A stretch of 64,000 nt of DNA from IMG/VR virus record IMGVR_UViG_3300022661_000085, positions 12,191 through 76,190 of that record. One strand, given 5' to 3'. Made by a program: the position numbers and the translations under genes. Below the pieces are notes generated by a model. It was not told the DNA's origin. It ran no database searches and worked only from the letters and a program-made list of their open reading frames with translations. Numbering within the stretch: the first letter of the stretch is position 1; each line of letters starts with the position of its first letter. Shown here in pieces: positions 28,340 to 33,310 of the stretch. This stretch comes from a virus. Its lineage: Duplodnaviria > Heunggongvirae > Uroviricota > Caudoviricetes.

Positions 28340-28470
28340 TATCAGCTTTCTGTTATAAGTAAGCTATATAAGCTTCCTTAATCAGTAAGCTAATAAGCTC
28401 TCTTATATAGTAAGCTAATAAGCTCTCTTATATAGTAAGCTTATATATTATATATATTATTATATATAGC
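28340..28470. repeat. AT-rich tandem repeats (25-bp unit AGTAAGCTAATAAGCTCTCTTATAT x2 plus partial copies; AGTAAGCT word x4)
   Basis: Direct inspection of 28384-28433 and flanks. Confidence 0.6.
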
Positions 28471-28499
28471 TATATATAGAAGGGTTGATTTCTATCTTT

Positions 28500-29460
28500 T
28501 ATAGTATAGTCGAAAAGACATCCTACCATAGGAGAGATCGCGAGGCTTGGGAACAATCAACCCTTCTCTTCTGTGTTTTACGGATCAAGCGATCTTCTCC
28601 GATTATGGGCAAACTTCCCGAATGAGGGTGCCGAGGTGTTCGAAGGGAAAATGGCGTGTGGGTGAGGAGAGGTGGACACCCTCGCGCACGCGAAAAAAGG
28701 AAGGGTTTGGCGTGTAAAATCACCCCCTATGGTCGGCGATGTTATCAACGCCAAAAAGATAACATTCGGTCGGCAAGAAAAGGGCAGGTTCTCCCTATGG
28801 GAGAAAAACCGCCTTTCTTGAGGGGGTGGAGCGAGTGGGTTCGAGTTGGCGAGTTCCCTCTACGAGGGAAAAGGGCGATTTCCCCTCTCTCCTCGTCCTC
28901 TCCCCTCTATTCACCTCAGTGAATAGCCGTCCTCTCGTGCCGTCCGTCCGAGAGCCGAGAGCCGACCTTCTCTCGTCCCGTAAGGGACTCTCTTCCCTCC
29001 TTTGTCCTCCCCTCCCTCACCGCCTTGCCGACCTCTGCCGACCGACCGAAAGCCCCAACCCCATAAAGGGGGTTGCCGTCGTCAAGAAGGGGGTAATAGG
29101 GGATATTCTCCCCTATAGTCCCCTCCTTCAAAGTGCCGTTCCCGTAGGGAACGAGGTTGCCCTCCCGTGGGTAGCGCAGGCAGCGCCCGCCTCACGCCTC
29201 CGCATCACACGAGGCAAGCCGAGCCGAAACCGAAATTTTTTCCCCGAAGGGGAAGTCGAGCCGAAAGTCGAAATTCACAAAAAATTCACAAATCGGCTCT
29301 CCCCGTAAGGGGAGTCGAAGCGCCCAAATCCGCAACCCCTAAAGGGGTTGACGAATCGTGCCGACCGTGGTATCATAGATACAGGCGGCAACCCCGACCG
29401 CCGACCGACCGAGCCGACAACGGCAAGGCGAAAAATCAAAATCACACAGGGGAGAAAGGC
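28500..29460. other. GC-rich ORF-free hairpin-dense tract
   Basis: Many CCCC-N3/4-GGGG and CTCCC..GGGAG mini-hairpins, CCGACCGACC repeats and a polypyrimidine tract. Six-frame ORFs here are low-complexity and lack RBS. Confidence 0.5.
29348..29376 (+). promoter_or_regulatory. promoter-like unit upstream of the HTH gene
   Basis: ACCCCTAAAGGGGT inverted repeat, then TTGACG(29348-53), a 17-bp spacer, and TATCAT(29371-76). An ATG follows at 29470 with a GGGGAGAAAGG RBS. Confidence 0.4.
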
Positions 29461-29469
29461 ACACACGCC

Positions 29470-30390
29470 ATGAAAAACACACGCAAAAACGCAACCGCAA
29501 CCACCGCAACCACCACCCGTCCCGTTACCACCGAAGGTGGTAAGCGTAGCCACTTTGACGAGGTACTTGACAAAGTCAAGTATGTCGGTGTCGGCAACGG
29601 ACTTGACGGCTCCGCCTACACCATCGAAGATGGTGAGGTCGGCTTGGGACTGAACGCACTTGACTGGCTTTGCTACGAAGTAGCAAAGGTGTTCGTGGTC
29701 AATCGTGATTACCTGCCCACACATATGCAGGACGCAGTTCGCCGTATCCGCCGAGTGAAACTCGGCACGGATACGAAGCCGGTTATGACGCCCTACATCA
29801 CCTCTGGTGATGCGTCCATTGACGACCTCCGTTCCACCGTTTGCTTGTCGCTCCTTGCCTCTTTAGAGGCAAACGACCGTGAGAACGCAATCCGCAATGC
29901 CTTTAAGGCATTGGATGCCGAAATCGTCCACGACAAGTACGAAGCCCGTGAGTACAAAACTCTTCCGAAGGAAGAGGTTTTGTGCGACGAGGACATCGGC
30001 TTGGTGAGGGCACTTATCGAGGGCAACACCTCTTACGAGGTGTCCTTCAAGCAAGACGGTCGCCCCGACCTCGTGGTGAGATACGAAGTATCTCCCGCCC
30101 TGCTCGCCATCTTTGACGGAGTCAAAGCGGCACACAAGTTCGCTTTCACGGACAGTATGTGCACGAGGTGGAGAGCGTTTGAGTACTTCGTACTCAACGT
30201 CAGCAACAACGAAATCGCCTCTCGGCTTGCTATAAGCAAGCAGAGAGCCTCGGCTCTGAACTGCGAAACTTGCAAGTGGTTTCTTGACGTAGTCAAGAAC
30301 CTCGACCTCAAGCACCTTGAGGAAATCGCCAAGTGTCCTAAGACACTTGAAACGCTCCGCCACATACAAGCGGCTGCACTTGCCGCCTAA
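29470..30390 (+). CDS. HTH protein with sigma-70 region-4/LuxR-like C-terminal motif (candidate transcription regulator)
   Basis: Start is the internal Met of the 29167 ORF, chosen for its RBS. The C-terminal 'NNEIASRLAISKQRASALNCETCKWF' matches the region 4.2 HTH pattern. Confidence 0.5.
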   Translation: MKNTRKNATATTATTTRPVTTEGGKRSHFDEVLDKVKYVGVGNGLDGSAYTIEDGEVGLGLNALDWLCYEVAKVFVVNRDYLPTHMQDAVRRIRRVKLGTDTKPVMTPYITSGDASIDDLRSTVCLSLLASLEANDRENAIRNAFKALDAEIVHDKYEAREYKTLPKEEVLCDEDIGLVRALIEGNTSYEVSFKQDGRPDLVVRYEVSPALLAIFDGVKAAHKFAFTDSMCTRWRAFEYFVLNVSNNEIASRLAISKQRASALNCETCKWFLDVVKNLDLKHLEEIAKCPKTLETLRHIQAAALAA

Positions 30391-30415
30391 GTCCCGTAGG
30401 GACTTAATAACACTC

Positions 30416-30907: not shown

Positions 30908-31784
30908 TTTGCCAAGCGTGACCATAACCACGTAATAGTTATGGGGTGAGCGACTACCAAAGGTCGCAGATGCCCACGAAGCATATGCCTCCTCGTGGTG
31001 TGGGCGGATAACCTTGCGGTTAACGGAACGTATGCAAAGTGTTGTAATGCTCAACCTTACCGAGCAATAGCGGTATAGGGGTACTCTTGCCCACAAGAGT
31101 AACGACCTTGACGATATGACAAGGCGTCGGTTAAGCCGTATGGGAGTAGACCTGCGGCGAGTCAGATAGTGAAAATGGCAACAGGTATGGCATTAAACCT
31201 AAACTCGGCTTGTGCAACGATGTCTATGCGTGATGTTATAATCACGAATACAAGCATTGACCTGCTTTAAGGTTAAGCTATACGCTTACAGTGCCAAGGC
31301 ATTGTATGAGTGGCGAGGTCTTAATGATGTGAATGTCGGCAACGCCGATGGAAGCCGTTGGAATGTGCGAGTATTACGGGCTATAAATAGCGTGAATATT
31401 AACCAAAATACATAGGGTTTGTAGTTATGAGATGCAAACCCTTTACCATATAGGGAGCCGTTAGACAGATCTGTATAGGTTTAACGGCTCTTTTACACCT
31501 AACCTCAAAGCCTCCACGTGGCAGGTGTGGATAACCAACCAATTTGAGGACTACCATAAGGGTTGTGCTTATGGGGCGAGCCTACCGAACGGCAAAAACG
31601 GCATAGCGATGCAACTATGACCTGCCAAAAGTCAGGACAAAAACTTCAATACTTAATAAACGGGGCGGGTTTACGGCTTTCAAGCCGACCGCCTCACACT
31701 ATGTGTGCTCTCAAAAAGCAAGCCTCCCCGTGGCGAGAGTGGATAACCAACCGATTGCTAAAAAAATACATAAGGAGAATTGTT
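30908..31784. other. ~880-nt ORF-free region with internal repeats including DnaA-box-like TGTGGATAA; candidate origin or large ncRNA
   Basis: No ORF of 60 aa or more with an RBS on either strand. Repeats of CCTCCNCGTGG-N6-TGGATAACCAACC occur at 30988, 31511 and 31724. TTATGGGGYGAGC occurs at 30941 and 31568. Confidence 0.45.
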
Positions 31785-32579
31785 ATGGCAACTAACAAAA
31801 AGGCAAATGTACTTGCGAACCTCAAAACCCAGATGGAGAAGCTTATCGCTGATGGCACGAAAGCCATCACTAAGGGCAACTTGTCTGACCTTTATAAGGC
31901 AGAGGAAGCTCTCGGTAAGGCAGAAAAGGAGTATGAGAAGGTTCTCGTGACCATCATCTATGACGAACTTCTCGCAACCGCTGAGCCCATCGTTGCGGCT
32001 ATCAAGCGTTACTCTTACAAGACGCTTCGCCACAGGGATAAGAAGAGTGAGGGTGAAAGCAAAAAGGTTATCGGACTCGAACTCGTGGAAAAGGAGCGTC
32101 AGCTTGACCTGCTCAAATTCTGCGAGTATAGCAAGAGTGCGGGTGGCGTTGAACTGCCTACCGATTGGCAGTATGCGGCGGCAAAGCTCAATCAGCTTCT
32201 CTGCCTCCGTGCGGCAAAAACGCTTAAGTGTACCGATGCCGAAATCGCTGAAATCGCCAAGTCATACTACCTCAAGGAGCAGGCACGCAAGCTCGAAATG
32301 GGCGAAACGCCTACCAGCGACACTCAGATTTGCAAGGCGTTGCAAATCGTAATCAACGGCATCATCTTTAAGGACGACGGCAAGGGCGGTAATGCATACA
32401 AGTGCAACAACCACGACGTGGCTTACCTGCTTGGATGCTACACCAAGAAGGGCAAAAAGGCTCTCTCGCTTGCAGTCGCTAAGGACGGCTTCTTCCGCCT
32501 TGTAATCACCGAAATCTGCCTCCGCATCATCGAGAACGGACGCTATACGGTTGAGGGTTACAAGACCGTCAAGGAGTAA
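31785..32579 (+). CDS. hypothetical protein (265 aa)
   Basis: Start is 'MATNKK' after an AAGGAGAA RBS. The table ORF from 31563 lacks an RBS. Confidence 0.5.
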   Translation: MATNKKANVLANLKTQMEKLIADGTKAITKGNLSDLYKAEEALGKAEKEYEKVLVTIIYDELLATAEPIVAAIKRYSYKTLRHRDKKSEGESKKVIGLELVEKERQLDLLKFCEYSKSAGGVELPTDWQYAAAKLNQLLCLRAAKTLKCTDAEIAEIAKSYYLKEQARKLEMGETPTSDTQICKALQIVINGIIFKDDGKGGNAYKCNNHDVAYLLGCYTKKGKKALSLAVAKDGFFRLVITEICLRIIENGRYTVEGYKTVKE

Positions 32580-32826
32580 TCCTGCAACAAGCTATTGACA
32601 ATCACGCTTTGGTGTGATATAATATAGGTACATACACCATTCGTGGTTGCTTGGTGTATGTGCGTGTGTGGAAGCGTAGCCTTTCACAGGGCTCGGGCGA
32701 GTGCCTATAAACTCGCCTTTCTCTTTACAAGACGCATAGCGTTTTCTCAAATGACCTACGGTCGTTGCCGACAATCGAATATCATTGGCGGCGACTGTTT
32801 ACCAAGTCCCGCGGAAAAGAGGTAAA

Positions 32827-33234
32827 ATGACAGAAAAAGAAACTGACCTATGCAAGGACATTGGCAGAGAGATGCTTAGAGCTCGTGAGCAAATCAGCAA
32901 CGACGACTATGCGGTGAACCCCGAGCAGATGCGTAAGTTTAACGAGGTATCGGAATACGCTGAGGCTCTTGCGAAAGACAACAACGGAACGATTGAGTAT
33001 CGTAACACGATCCCCCGTGATACCATTGGAGCGATTGCAATTCGTTTCGTCGGTGAGCTTACCTTCGGGGAAGACTCTACCAGTATGAAAAACTTCACAA
33101 AAGCATTGGATCTATGCGACGGATTTAATATCGAAGGCACAGGACTTGAGGACGGTTCGTTCATCGTGACCTTTTATGTGTCTGATGTCCACGTAAAGAA
33201 AACCAAATGCAAAATCATCAAGAAGCGCTTGTAA
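32827..33234 (+). CDS. hypothetical protein (136 aa)
   Basis: Start is 'MTEKE' after an AAGAGGTAAA RBS. Confidence 0.45.
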   Translation: MTEKETDLCKDIGREMLRAREQISNDDYAVNPEQMRKFNEVSEYAEALAKDNNGTIEYRNTIPRDTIGAIAIRFVGELTFGEDSTSMKNFTKALDLCDGFNIEGTGLEDGSFIVTFYVSDVHVKKTKCKIIKKRL

Positions 33235-33249
33235 TGAAAACAGGCGCTT

Positions 33250-33310
33250 TTTTCGTCCCTATATATATTAGCTTACTGATTAGGGTAGCTTATATTAAGC
33301 TTACTGTATA
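33250..33310. repeat. inverted copies of the AGTAAGCT repeat family (TAGCTTACTGATTAGGGTAGCT etc.)
   Basis: 33260-33274 is the exact reverse complement of 28376-28390. Confidence 0.5.

What the first reader, a model, noticed from the sequence alone, without database searches (positions are those of the whole stretch)
28340..33310. Compositionally distinct ~5-kb island bounded by AGTAAGCT-type direct repeats (left) and their inverted copies (right)
The left end has four direct AGTAAGCT(A/T) copies within a 25-bp tandem repeat (28340-28470). The right end (33250-33310) has inverted copies, and 33260-33274 is the exact reverse complement of 28376-28390. Between them lie a ~60% GC tract dense in CCCC-N3/4-GGGG hairpins (28500-29460), three repeated promoter-like ~105-bp units (29330, 30551, 30656), a sigma region-4-like HTH gene, the 880-nt ORF-free region and two unknown genes. 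Clustered repeats at both ends of a segment resemble multi-site transposon ends or operator clusters (OL/OR-like) of an immunity region. Iterons of an ori are also possible.
Basis: seen in the sequence. Interest (0 to 1): 0.6.

Follow-up and report, generated by a model that had tools for sequence, protein, structure and literature searches.

The report
Repeat-flanked control region of SPβ-like phage
The repeats are real, but the segment is not a mobile island: it is the conserved central control region of an SPβ-like gut phage, so the finding is largely ordinary, and what the repeat arrays do remains undetermined.

Summary
The repeats exist. Four direct AGTAAGCT copies form a 25-bp tandem array (28349-28445). 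Two inverted copies form a 28-bp array (33264-33323). Each array sits beside the same polypurine/polypyrimidine tract.

The 5-kb "island" is not a unit. The window is an SPβ-like temperate phage of gut Clostridia, with a YonO RNA polymerase and an SPβ-type terminase. The segment lies where the leftward YonO operon and the rightward genes diverge.

- **Synteny:** relatives at 40-70% identity keep the same gene cassette and a left array with a lineage-specific motif. L013, L039 and L090 lack the right array.
- **Right array:** array, tract and p90 form a lineage-specific inverted partial copy of the left module, placed behind a strong terminator.
- **GC content:** high GC covers only 28481-30766 and recurs in relatives.
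- **pac link:** that tract holds a block shared with the SPβ yonP-yonR pac region.
- **Second inverted pair:** two perfect sigma-A promoters (28226-28254 and 34052-34080) share a spacer motif and face outward.
- **Mobility:** I found no transposase, target duplication or presence/absence polymorphism.

Best reading (about 0.45): the arrays are protein-binding sites of an upstream transcription-control module. Iteron and pac-accessory roles remain possible.

The parts
28226..28254 (-). P_left, a perfect sigma-A promoter (TTGACA-17-TATAAT). Its position suggests it drives the 441-aa YonV_C-domain gene, a 61-aa gene and the YonO RNA polymerase gene. The spacer carries GTGTCTAAATATGG.
   Evidence: 12/12 match. 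Conserved in L001, L002, L011, L013, L014 and L021.
28311..28336 (.). Polypyrimidine (T-rich) tract CTTTCTTTTTATTATTTTTCTTTCTT, between P_left and the left array.
   Evidence: I1, I8; 2 matches against 0.03 expected. Present in L001, L002, L013, L014 and L090.
28349..28445 (+). Left array: 25-bp unit, 3.9 copies, with four AGTAAGCT and seven TAAGCT cores.
   Evidence: Close relatives L006-L008 have 3 copies where the window has 4.
28442..28478 (.). (TA)n-rich stretch next to the array. The region 28340-28480 is 23% GC. Two relatives' contigs break or change here (L009 at 28469, L098 at 28454).
28630..28765 (+). pac-like conserved block. It comprises a purine-rich run, TGTAAAATCACCCCC (28713-28727) and the inverted repeat ATGTTATC-N11-GATAACAT (28739-28765).
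   Evidence: Present in window relatives L001, L002, L013, L014, L016, L017, L021, L081 and L090, with double changes in the repeat arms. The SPβ yonP-yonR region shows a purine-rich run followed by GATGTAAATATACCCCC.
28481..29330 (+). GC-rich (55%) non-coding tract of short CCC..GGG hairpins. The loops read GTAA, TACG or GAA on the + strand.
   Evidence: Hairpins keep their positions in L002 and in close strains with compensatory stem changes.
29334..29376 (+). 16-bp palindrome AACCCCTAAAGGGGTT, centred about 42 nt upstream of the start site by my count, overlapping promoter P306 (TTGACG-17-TATCAT with TG).
   Evidence: The palindrome is invariant in genomes that carry a p306 homolog.
29470..30390 (+). 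p306, the first rightward gene, in the position of SPβ yonR. Probable C-terminal HTH, unverified.
30554..30727 (+). Two exact tandem units (period 101), each with the palindrome followed by TTGACG.
   Evidence: Relatives carry tandem units of 67-101 bp in 2-3 or more copies. Several contigs end inside them.
30767..30907 (+). p46, a small ORF.
   Evidence: 98% conserved in L005 and L007.
30908..31784 (+). ORF-free region with three copies of a ~45-nt hairpin motif, at 30987-31013, 31510-31536 and 31722-31748.
   Evidence: (D3).
31785..32579 (+). p264, unknown function.
   Evidence: Homologs in L013, L039 and L090 at 44-47% identity.
32595..32623 (+). P135, a perfect sigma-A promoter with extended TG.
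32827..33234 (+). p135, unknown function.
33220..33253 (+). Intrinsic terminator after p135: 13-bp stem, -16.6 kcal/mol, z -4.25, followed by UUUUUU.
33264..33323 (-). Right array: 28-bp unit, 2.2 copies, in inverted orientation to the left array.
   Evidence: Motif positions are conserved and spacers vary in L005 and L098. Absent in L013, L039, L090, L094 and L097.
33326..33351 (+). Polypurine tract AAGAAAGAAATTATAAAGAAAGAAAG, the inverted copy of 28311-28336. It ends 12 nt before the p90 start codon.
   Evidence: (I1, I8).
33364..34020 (+). p90 and p122. They lie between the right array/tract and P_right. Only window-lineage loci (L005, L009, L098-L100) encode a p90.
34052..34080 (+). P_right, a perfect sigma-A promoter. 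It is an inverted copy of P_left (28223-28286 against 34019-34083).
   Evidence: The same inverted promoter pair occurs in L013, with 21 nt exact.

Best explanation
The segment is the central control region of an SPβ-like phage that encodes a YonO RNA polymerase. It is not an island.

It lies where the leftward operon (441-aa YonV_C protein, 61-aa protein, YonO) and the rightward genes diverge. This position matches the yonP-yonR intergenic region of SPβ, which holds that phage's pac site.

Read outward on either side, the flanking repeats form one kind of cis-regulatory module: a TA-rich stretch, then an array of TAAGCT-core sites, then a polypurine tract. The left copy sits 57-190 bp upstream of the consensus promoter P_left. 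The right copy is a lineage-specific inverted partial duplication. It sits behind the p135 terminator and directly in front of p90-p122.

I infer that the arrays are clustered binding sites for a phage-encoded sequence-specific DNA-binding protein that is not yet identified. This protein would activate or repress outward transcription, and the right copy would bring p90-p122 under the same control as the YonO operon.

A separate single-site operator, the GTGTCTAAATATGG spacer motif, probably ties P_left and P_right to the master repressor, as SPBRE/MrpR does in SPβ.

Shown: the anatomy, the synteny, the lineage restriction of the right copy, and the terminator. Inferred: protein binding and the regulatory role.
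For: **Phage identity and position**
- The terminase is 43% identical to SPβ's.
- The 912-aa ORF matches YonO-like proteins.
- YonG, YonJ and YonV Pfam domains occur in the neighbours.
- SPβ has the same divergent yonO-yonP | 950-bp gap | yonR layout.

**Not mobile**
- The cassette is syntenic in L002, L013, L039 and L090.
- Those that reach the right end (L013, L039, L090) have no second cluster of their own array motif.

**Both copies share orientation and composition relative to the genes they face**.

**Signs of selection on the sites**
- In L005 and L098 the AGCTTAC and TAGCT cores of the right array are conserved while the spacers differ.
- Every lineage with a left array has its own palindromic-core motif at the same place: AGCTTACTG in L014, AGCTATTAG in L013, CTAATAGCT in L001, TATATGCATA in L090. 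This is what sites that co-evolve with a binding protein should look like.

**A promoter is needed at the right array**
- p135 ends in a strong terminator, so p90-p122 need a promoter within 33257-33363.
- Read by eye, that stretch offers only weak sigma-A-like matches: TTAGCT-17-TATATT at 33269-33297 and TTAAGC-17-TAATAT at 33296-33324. Such weak matches are consistent with activator dependence.

**Master-repressor analogy**
- SPβ PyonP and PyonT share AAATATGTATATAA across the spacer and -10.
- MrpR binds SPBRE at PyonP (PMC10516654).
Against: - No binding protein has been identified.
- The array motif does not co-vary with the p306-slot regulator. L001 has a GerE-type protein and L013 a p306-type protein, yet both share the AGCTATTAGT motif.
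- The left array lies 95-190 bp upstream of the -35 hexamer, which is far for a classical operator.
- The consensus scan called no promoter on the + strand in the right array.
- In L090 the T-rich tract and array stay next to the pac-like block although no P_left-type promoter was found there. This links them to that block rather than to P_left.
- L016 and L017 have P_left but no array.
- Four 25-bp direct repeats beside an AT-rich, strand-asymmetric tract is also classic origin anatomy.
Confidence: 0.45

Rival explanations
1. The arrays are iterons of replication origins. The left array, with its AT-rich strand-asymmetric tract and (TA)n stretch, would be the main origin. The right two-copy array would be a second or regulatory origin, as with oriL and oriR of SPP1.
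For: - Four evenly spaced 25-bp direct repeats with internal dyad cores, flanked by a 26-nt polypyrimidine tract and a 37-nt TA stretch at 23% GC.
- Copy number differs between strains, 3 against 4.
- Motifs are lineage-specific.
- From my own knowledge, lambda ori has four iterons next to an AT-rich region with purine strand bias, and SPP1 has two iteron clusters.
Against: - No recognisable initiator, helicase loader or other replication gene lies within about 20 kb on either side. The right-hand genes checked are RNA-repair, tRNA and NAMPT functions.
- No DnaA boxes sit next to the arrays. The nearest perfect boxes are at 31526 and 34408.
- The right copy sits exactly where a promoter is needed, behind a terminator and 12 nt before a start codon.
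- L016 and L017 lack arrays.
- The sign changes in skew at 28-29 kb follow the switch in gene orientation.
Confidence: 0.2
2. The left array is an accessory recognition element of the packaging (pac) site. It would be a cluster of binding sites for the small terminase or a packaging cofactor, next to the conserved pac core.
For: - In SPβ the pac site, or genome opening point, maps between yonR and yonP (bioRxiv 10.1101/2021.11.22.469490; PMC8270828). That is the homologous position.
- The purine-rich run followed by TGTAAA(A)T(A)CCCCC occurs 270 bp from the array and in SPβ.
- The BUCT082 record starts, and the BUCT083 record ends, 252 bp apart inside that SPβ region.
- In L090 the T-rich tract and array remain adjacent to this block.
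- SPβ has its own short ATCGTAA repeats around the purine tract.
- From my own knowledge, the P1 and SPP1 pac sites use flanking repeats.
Against: - The right copy has no pac-like block beside it.
- The ends of relatives' contigs are scattered (28254, 28469, 28831, 28852, about 29100-29200, and within 30554-30743). They fall at a hypervariable segment or in tandem repeats, which points to assembly breaks rather than physical ends.
- No small terminase has been identified, and nothing is known about its specificity.
Confidence: 0.15
3. The left array, T-rich tract and TA stretch form attP. The repeats would be arm-type or excisionase sites, and the TA stretch would be the crossover core.
For: - L098 is collinear with the window from 28454 onward but carries 198 nt of unrelated sequence to the left of that point.
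- L009's contig starts at 28469.
- Direct repeats beside a bent A/T tract resemble binding arrays for recombination directionality factors (my own knowledge).
Against: - L013 lies in a 278-kb contig with the same architecture contiguous on both sides.
- L101 and other contigs cross the site without interruption.
- The only tyrosine recombinase (19727-20740) is about 7.6 kb away in the late operon. It has homologs of 47-50% identity in Bacillus and Lactococcus phages such as Tsamsa, phiL47 and WRP3, which from my own knowledge are lytic.
- The 198-nt flank was not found anywhere else, so a chimera or recombinant strain is equally likely.
Confidence: 0.07
4. The repeats are terminal inverted repeats of a transposable or invertible 5-kb element.
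For: Imperfect inverted repeats at both ends: 30 nt at 93% and 37 nt at 76%.
Against: - No transposase or invertase gene lies inside.
- No target-site duplication.
- No relative lacks the segment or has it inverted.
- Relatives have the cassette without the right repeat.
- A second, outer inverted pair consists of functional-looking promoters.
Confidence: 0.03

Closest known systems
SPβ yonP-yonR intergenic region (pac / genome opening region, with the MrpR-controlled PyonP promoter)
   Same: - It holds the same position, between the leftward yonO operon and the first rightward regulator gene.
- It shares a purine-rich run followed by TGTAAA(A)T(A)CCCCC.
- Its promoter carries a repeated motif over the spacer and -10.
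- It has short repeated motifs between the promoter and the purine tract.
   Different: - The window's region is 1.5 kb rather than 0.95 kb and is GC-rich with many hairpins.
- The repeat motif differs: TAAGCT arrays against ATCGTAA.
- The first rightward gene is an unrelated 306-aa protein, not the Xre-type YonR.
- The window lineage has a second, inverted copy of the array and tract 4.9 kb away.
Lambda OL/OR operator-promoter pairs flanking the immunity region
   Same: - Two outward-facing promoters with the same operator-like sequence flank a few kilobases of regulatory genes.
- Repeated sites occur on both sides in mirror orientation.
   Different: - No CI-like repressor gene was identified between them.
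- The AGTAAGCT arrays do not overlap the consensus promoters.
- All internal genes point rightward and have their own promoters.
- The spacing is 5.8 kb rather than 2.4 kb.
Iteron origins (lambda ori; SPP1 oriL and oriR), from my own knowledge
   Same: Four regularly spaced direct repeats with dyad cores beside an AT-rich, strand-asymmetric tract, with a second smaller cluster elsewhere in the genome.
   Different: No initiator gene overlaps or adjoins the arrays. No replication module lies in the 64-kb window.
Arrays of short repeats bound by ribbon-helix-helix regulators (for example the omega repressor heptads of pSM19035), from my own knowledge
   Same: Clusters of 6-8-bp core motifs in direct and inverted orientation upstream of promoters in Firmicute mobile elements.
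   Different: The cores here are spaced 8 and 17 bp apart rather than contiguous. No ribbon-helix-helix protein was identified.

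Membership tests
Transposon / insertion element with terminal inverted repeats | Inverted repeats at both ends | tested here: met
   30 nt at 93% (28366-28395 / 33266-33295) and 37 nt at 76%. The longest exact match is 17 nt.
Transposon / insertion element with terminal inverted repeats | Transposase or recombinase gene inside | tested here: not met
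   No Pfam or PHROG hit at E<=0.01 and no NCBIfam hit at E<=0.05 for p306, p264 and p135. No Pfam or PHROG hit for p46.
Transposon / insertion element with terminal inverted repeats | Target-site duplication next to the ends | tested here: not met
   The flanks AGGGGTT (left) and TGCAGGT (right) differ.
Transposon / insertion element with terminal inverted repeats | Presence/absence polymorphism with boundaries at the repeats | tested here: not met
   The cassette is syntenic in L002, L013, L039 and L090. The right repeat is absent in L013, L039 and L090. No empty site was found.
Lambda-type OL/OR operator clusters | The same operator sequence on both sides, at outward-facing promoters | tested here: inconclusive
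   Met for the P_left/P_right spacer motif. The AGTAAGCT arrays lie upstream of, not within, the consensus promoters.
Lambda-type OL/OR operator clusters | Repressor gene between the clusters | tested here: inconclusive
   The HTH of p306 is unverified. No CI or Xre family hit.
Iteron-type replication origin | Three or more regularly spaced direct repeats next to an AT-rich unwinding region | tested here: met
   Four 25-bp units. The neighbouring stretches are 23% GC and include the polypyrimidine tract.
Iteron-type replication origin | Cognate initiator gene overlapping or adjacent | tested here: not met
   No replication protein was recognised among the genes checked between 13 and 55 kb.
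Iteron-type replication origin | Origin activity | not testable with these tools
   This needs marker-frequency analysis or a plasmid replication assay.
SPβ-type pac region | Located between the yonO operon and the first divergent regulator gene | tested here: met
SPβ-type pac region | Shared sequence signature with the SPβ yonP-yonR region | tested here: met
   A purine-rich run followed by TGTAAAATCACCCCC (28713-28727), against GATGTAAATATACCCCC in SPBc2. The resemblance is at motif level, not a BLAST-level alignment.
SPβ-type pac region | Physical genome ends map there | not testable with these tools
   Only circumstantial evidence is available: the BUCT082 and BUCT083 record termini, and scattered contig ends.
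SPBRE / MrpR-type master-repressor operators | A ~15-bp motif repeated in the promoters of several operons | tested here: met
   CCATATTTAGAMAC occurs at 9 sites against 1.19 expected. Positions are conserved in relatives.
SPBRE / MrpR-type master-repressor operators | MrpR (YopR) homolog encoded by the phage | not tested
   The 337-aa tyrosine recombinase matches the late-cluster XerC-like gene of SPβ-like phages. I did not compare it with YopR, and the window covers only about 60% of the genome.

The most novel reading that the evidence does not exclude
One module may be the packaging-initiation locus of the whole family of phages that encode YonO. The module comprises the T-rich tract, a lineage-specific palindromic-core repeat array, a TA stretch, a purine-rich run, TGTAAAAT-CCCCC, and a covarying 8-bp inverted repeat. 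In this reading the arrays determine packaging specificity. The downstream GC-rich run of positionally conserved, compensating hairpins with GNRA/UNCG-type loops on the + strand would be a structured RNA or single-stranded-DNA element that works with it. The SPβ pac site has never been defined at sequence level.
Probability: 0.2. Interest if true: 0.55.

Novelty: new member of a known kind. Interest (0 to 1): 0.3.

Why it matters
SPβ-like phages that carry the unusual single-subunit YonO RNA polymerase turn out to be common in gut Clostridia: 186 candidate stretches in the genome collection encoded a YonO relative. Their control regions are unannotated.

This analysis gives a concrete map of the region:
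- two co-regulated consensus promoters with a probable master-repressor operator;
- a conserved pac-like signature shared with Bacillus SPβ;
- a palindrome that co-occurs with one regulator family;
- lineage-specific repeat arrays.

Experimenters could test each of these directly. It also removes a false lead: there is no mobile island here.

Tried and rejected
- **Close DNA relatives in GenBank phages:** none found.
- **Island proteins:** Pfam, PHROGs and NCBIfam scans of the island proteins, and PDB sequence searches with p264 and the p306 profile, gave nothing usable.
- **p306 structure:** the AlphaFold2 model from 12 sequences had mean pLDDT 61.6. Foldseek against the PDB gave no hit with E<0.4. 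Scattered sigma-factor hits were not significant.
- **p306 against the L001 regulator:** the profile comparison of p306 with the GerE-type protein at the same position in L001 showed no homology.
- **Rfam:** at a permissive threshold over 28000-36200, nothing appeared in the GC tract or the ORF-free region.
- **Collection scans:** viral-contig scans with p264 and p306, and a metagenome scan with the p135 profile, found nothing.
- **Contig ends as physical genome ends:** rejected. The ends are scattered and coincide with tandem repeats and with a strain-variable segment, 29020-29390.
- **attP idea from the L098 junction:** not supported by L013, L101 or the flank searches.
- **p306 as the array binder:** rejected because the array motif does not co-vary with that gene.
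- **DnaA-box reading of the 37-nt repeats:** rejected. A hairpin motif with compensatory closing stems explains them better.

Full report
**What the window is**

Genes run on the minus strand up to 27951 and on the plus strand from 29470. The window carries at least 16 tRNA genes. The large terminase (16815-18584) is 43% identical to that of SPβ-group Bacillus phages.

The 912-aa ORF at 23635-26373 matches proteins annotated as 'RNA-dependent RNA polymerase' in Enterocloster and Thomasclavelia phages, and a protein in a Spbetavirus. This is how YonO-type single-subunit RNA polymerases are usually labelled. Called genes on near-identical contigs carry YonG, YonJ and YonV_C Pfam domains.

A scan of species-representative genomes with a YonO alignment confirmed 186 relatives and returned the best 80 as loci. 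Nearly all are in Clostridia genome bins, and one from a sheep-colon bin is 100% identical. The window is therefore an SPβ-like temperate phage of gut Clostridia. The finding sits exactly at its strand switch.

**Checking the observation**

The repeats are real and far beyond chance.
- AGTAAGCT occurs 8 times against 2.06 expected. Six of the eight lie in two small clusters: four on the + strand at 28358-28441 and two on the - strand at 33270-33305.
- TRF reports a 25-bp array (28349-28445) and a 28-bp array (33264-33323).
The true exact match is 17 nt, 28379-28395 against 33266-33282.
- Each array adjoins the same 26-nt polypurine/polypyrimidine tract, again in mirror orientation. That is 2 matches against 0.03 expected.

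Compositional distinctness holds only for 28481-30766 (54-59% GC). The rest of the 'island' is 45-51%, against a window mean of 44.7%.

CCC-N3-5-GGG hairpins are enriched: 10 overlapping matches against 2.7 +/- 2.0 in shuffles. They always have C-run-first polarity.

Of the three 'promoter-like units', two are exact 101-bp-period tandem copies. The third shares only the palindrome AACCCCTAAAGGGGTTGACG, and it alone has a usable -10.

The consensus scan finds three perfect 12/12 sigma-A promoters: 28254->28226 on the minus strand (P_left), 32595-32623 (P135) and 34052-34080 (P_right). P_left and P_right are inverted copies of one another over about 65 bp (28223-28286 against 34019-34083). They share the spacer GT(G/T)TCTAAATATGG.

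Aligning the left region, read on the minus strand, against the right side shows one module: TA stretch, array, polypurine tract, about 50 bp, promoter. On the right it is split by p90 and p122, which lie between the tract and the promoter.

The spacer motif (CCATATTTAGAMAC) occurs at 9 sites against 1.19 expected. Its positions are conserved in relatives.

**Comparative test of the island idea**

Homologs of the 306-aa protein led to contigs 82-97% identical to the window. A viral contig, L002, is about 70% identical. The YonO scan gave L013, L039 and L090, whose YonO is 63-70% identical.
- The order p441 | p306 homolog (detected in L013 only), p264, p135 (L013 only), p122 is kept at 39-49% amino-acid identity.
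- These relatives keep a T-rich tract and a repeat array to the right of the p441 gene (shown for L013, L014/L021, L001, L002 and L090).
- The repeat motif is lineage-specific: AGCTATTAG in L013, AGCTTACTG in L014/L021, CTAATAGCT in L001, TATATGCATA in L090. L016 and L017 have no array.
- None of L013, L039 or L090 has a second cluster of its own motif, or an inverted copy of the array, on the right. L013 keeps only the inverted promoter pair.
- Intermediate relatives of p135 (L094 at 66%, L097 at 56%) also lack an array after that gene.
- Only window-lineage loci encode a p90.

The right array, tract and p90 are therefore a recent addition in one lineage, copied from the left module. The segment between the repeats is ancestral and was never a unit of mobility. 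I found no transposase, no target duplication and no empty site.

The elevated GC of the tract + p306 module recurs in every relative with a p306 homolog, at 6-14 points above the flanks. It is absent in L001, which has an unrelated GerE-type gene at that position.

**What the left third of the segment is**

In SPβ, yonP-yonO runs leftward and yonR rightward, with 950 bp between them. Published work places the pac site, or genome opening point, in that gap. The authors describe a conserved block of about 250 bp there (bioRxiv 10.1101/2021.11.22.469490; PMC8270828). The same promoter region binds the master repressor MrpR at an SPBRE (PMC10516654).

The window's tract contains three elements in order:
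- a purine-rich run;
- TGTAAAATCACCCCC (28713-28727);
- an inverted repeat, ATGTTATC-N11-GATAACAT (28739-28765).

The same order is found in L001, L002, L013, L014, L016, L017, L021, L081 and L090. Double changes keep the repeat arms complementary: ATGCTATC/GATAGCAT in L017, ATATTATC/GATAATAT in L001, ATGCTAAC/GTTAGCAT in L090.

SPBc2 has a purine-rich run followed by GATGTAAATATACCCCC in the yonP-yonR gap. Two deposited Spbetavirus records begin and end 252 bp apart around it. I read this block as the homolog of the SPβ pac region. That is an inference, because no physical ends could be examined.

Downstream, the hairpins keep their positions between the window and L002, and among close strains, with compensatory stem changes. 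One example is TATTCAC..GTGAATA against TATTCCC..GGGAATA. Their loops read GTAA, TACG or TTCG on the plus strand. This suggests selection on pairing in an RNA or single-stranded DNA.

In contrast, the palindrome AACCCCTAAAGGGGTT is invariant. It occurs only in genomes with a p306 homolog, both at P306 and in the tandem units. p306 is thus a reasonable candidate for its binder.

**What the arrays most likely do**

Three facts favour a transcription-control module.
- Both copies have the same orientation toward the genes they face.
- p135 ends in a strong terminator (-16.6 kcal/mol, z -4.25). p90-p122 therefore need a promoter within the 107 bp that the right array and tract occupy. Reading by eye, I find only weak sigma-A-like matches there, which suggests activator dependence.
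- The core positions of the right array are conserved in L005 and L098 while the spacers drift.

Motifs that differ by lineage but stay at one position look like sites co-evolving with a binding protein.

Against this reading:
- the binder is unknown;
- the motif does not co-vary with the p306-slot gene;
- in L090 the tract and array stay with the pac-like block although no P_left-type promoter was found there;
- the anatomy (four 25-bp repeats beside an AT-rich, strand-asymmetric tract) also fits an iteron origin or pac accessory sites.

I put the regulatory reading at about 0.45, iterons at 0.2, pac accessory at 0.15, attP arm sites at 0.07 and mobile-element ends at 0.03.

**The master-repressor analogy**

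SPβ PyonP and PyonT share AAATATGTATATAA across the spacer and -10. The window's P_left and P_right share AAATATGG-N-GTATAAT-type spacers. The single-site spacer motif is therefore the better candidate for the immunity operator, not the arrays.

**Loose ends**

- L098 is collinear with the window from 28454 but has 198 nt of unmatched sequence before that point. L009's contig starts at 28469. Searches for the flank found nothing. Other contigs cross the site without interruption. This single junction stays unexplained.
- Other contig ends fall in the tandem units or in a strain-variable segment, 29020-29390. Assembly breaks explain these more simply.

**Verdict**

The finding is a correct observation of real repeats with a mostly incorrect framing. 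The region is an ordinary but uncharacterised phage control region, homologous in layout to the SPβ yonP-yonR locus. Interest is modest.

The most novel reading still open is a family-wide pac signature with lineage-specific repeat arrays and a conserved hairpin tract.

Noticed in passing
window 35501-35616, 35624-35741, 35842-35968 (+) and 36159-37676 (+): Three tRNA-like RNAs carry long (~56-nt) inserts in the anticodon arm. They score 41-50 bits on the Rfam tRNA model, and there is a weak YrlA match (E 1e-3). They lie just upstream of a TROVE/Ro-like gene (DUF2828, DUF7788, VWA). Downstream come ThiF-like, AAA_33 kinase and metallophosphatase genes, 12 tRNAs and NAMPT. This looks like a phage Ro / Y-RNA and RNA-repair module.
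   Followed up: partly
window 23513-23541 (+), 27084-27112 (+), 28226-28254 (-), 34052-34080 (+), 34533-34561 (-), 37760-37791: The motif GTGTCTAAATATGG-N3-TATAAT occurs at 9 sites against 1.19 expected. Some copies lack a -35 and point antisense: one inside p441 and one just 3' of YonO. Positions are conserved in L001, L002, L013 and L014. It is either a master-repressor operator like SPBRE or a phage-specific promoter class.
   Followed up: partly
window 30987-31013, 31510-31536, 31722-31748 (+): A ~45-nt hairpin motif with the invariant interior GCCUCCNCGUGGC..GGAUAACCAACC is repeated three times in the ORF-free region. The last copy lies directly 5' of the p264 ribosome-binding site. It is conserved in L013, L039 and L090, with six closing-stem pairs that change on both sides. 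No Rfam match.
   Followed up: partly
L098 1-198 joined to window 28454: A 105-kb contig of a close strain has 198 nt of unmatched sequence joined inside the (TA)n stretch beside the left array. L009's contig starts at window 28469. This could be a prophage junction, a recombinant strain or a chimera.
   Followed up: partly
window 29020-29390: This segment is replaced by unrelated sequence of similar length and hairpin style in strains L007 and L008. L103 and L104 also diverge from the window beyond 29020. In the L007 version P306 has a different palindrome.
   Followed up: partly
window 30554-30727 and relatives: Tandem units that carry the invariant palindrome vary in period (67, 78 and 101 bp) and in copy number (2 to at least 3) between relatives. 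Several metagenomic contigs end inside them.
   Followed up: partly
window 33364-33636 (+): p90 is only 53% identical in L005, while the neighbouring genes are 88-97% identical. It is either fast-evolving or has been exchanged.
   Followed up: no
window 29271-29292 (+): The direct repeat AAATTCACAAA x2, about 55 nt upstream of the P306 -35, is identical in the window and in L002, which is only ~70% identical overall.
   Followed up: no
window 22443-23183 (-): A GIY-YIG plus HTH ORF (homing-endonuclease-like) sits between tRNA genes downstream of YonO.
   Followed up: no
window 41996-43390 (+): A 464-aa ORF matches PHROG polymerase and reverse-transcriptase families.
   Followed up: no
L003 11500-14000 (MT835469.1): A distant 28%-GC relative has an ORF-free stretch in the region beyond the YonO start. 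GC skew switches there from +0.5 to -0.6, and the stretch contains ATGTAAACTATCCCCC. This mirrors the G-rich then C-rich layout of the window's tract.
   Followed up: no
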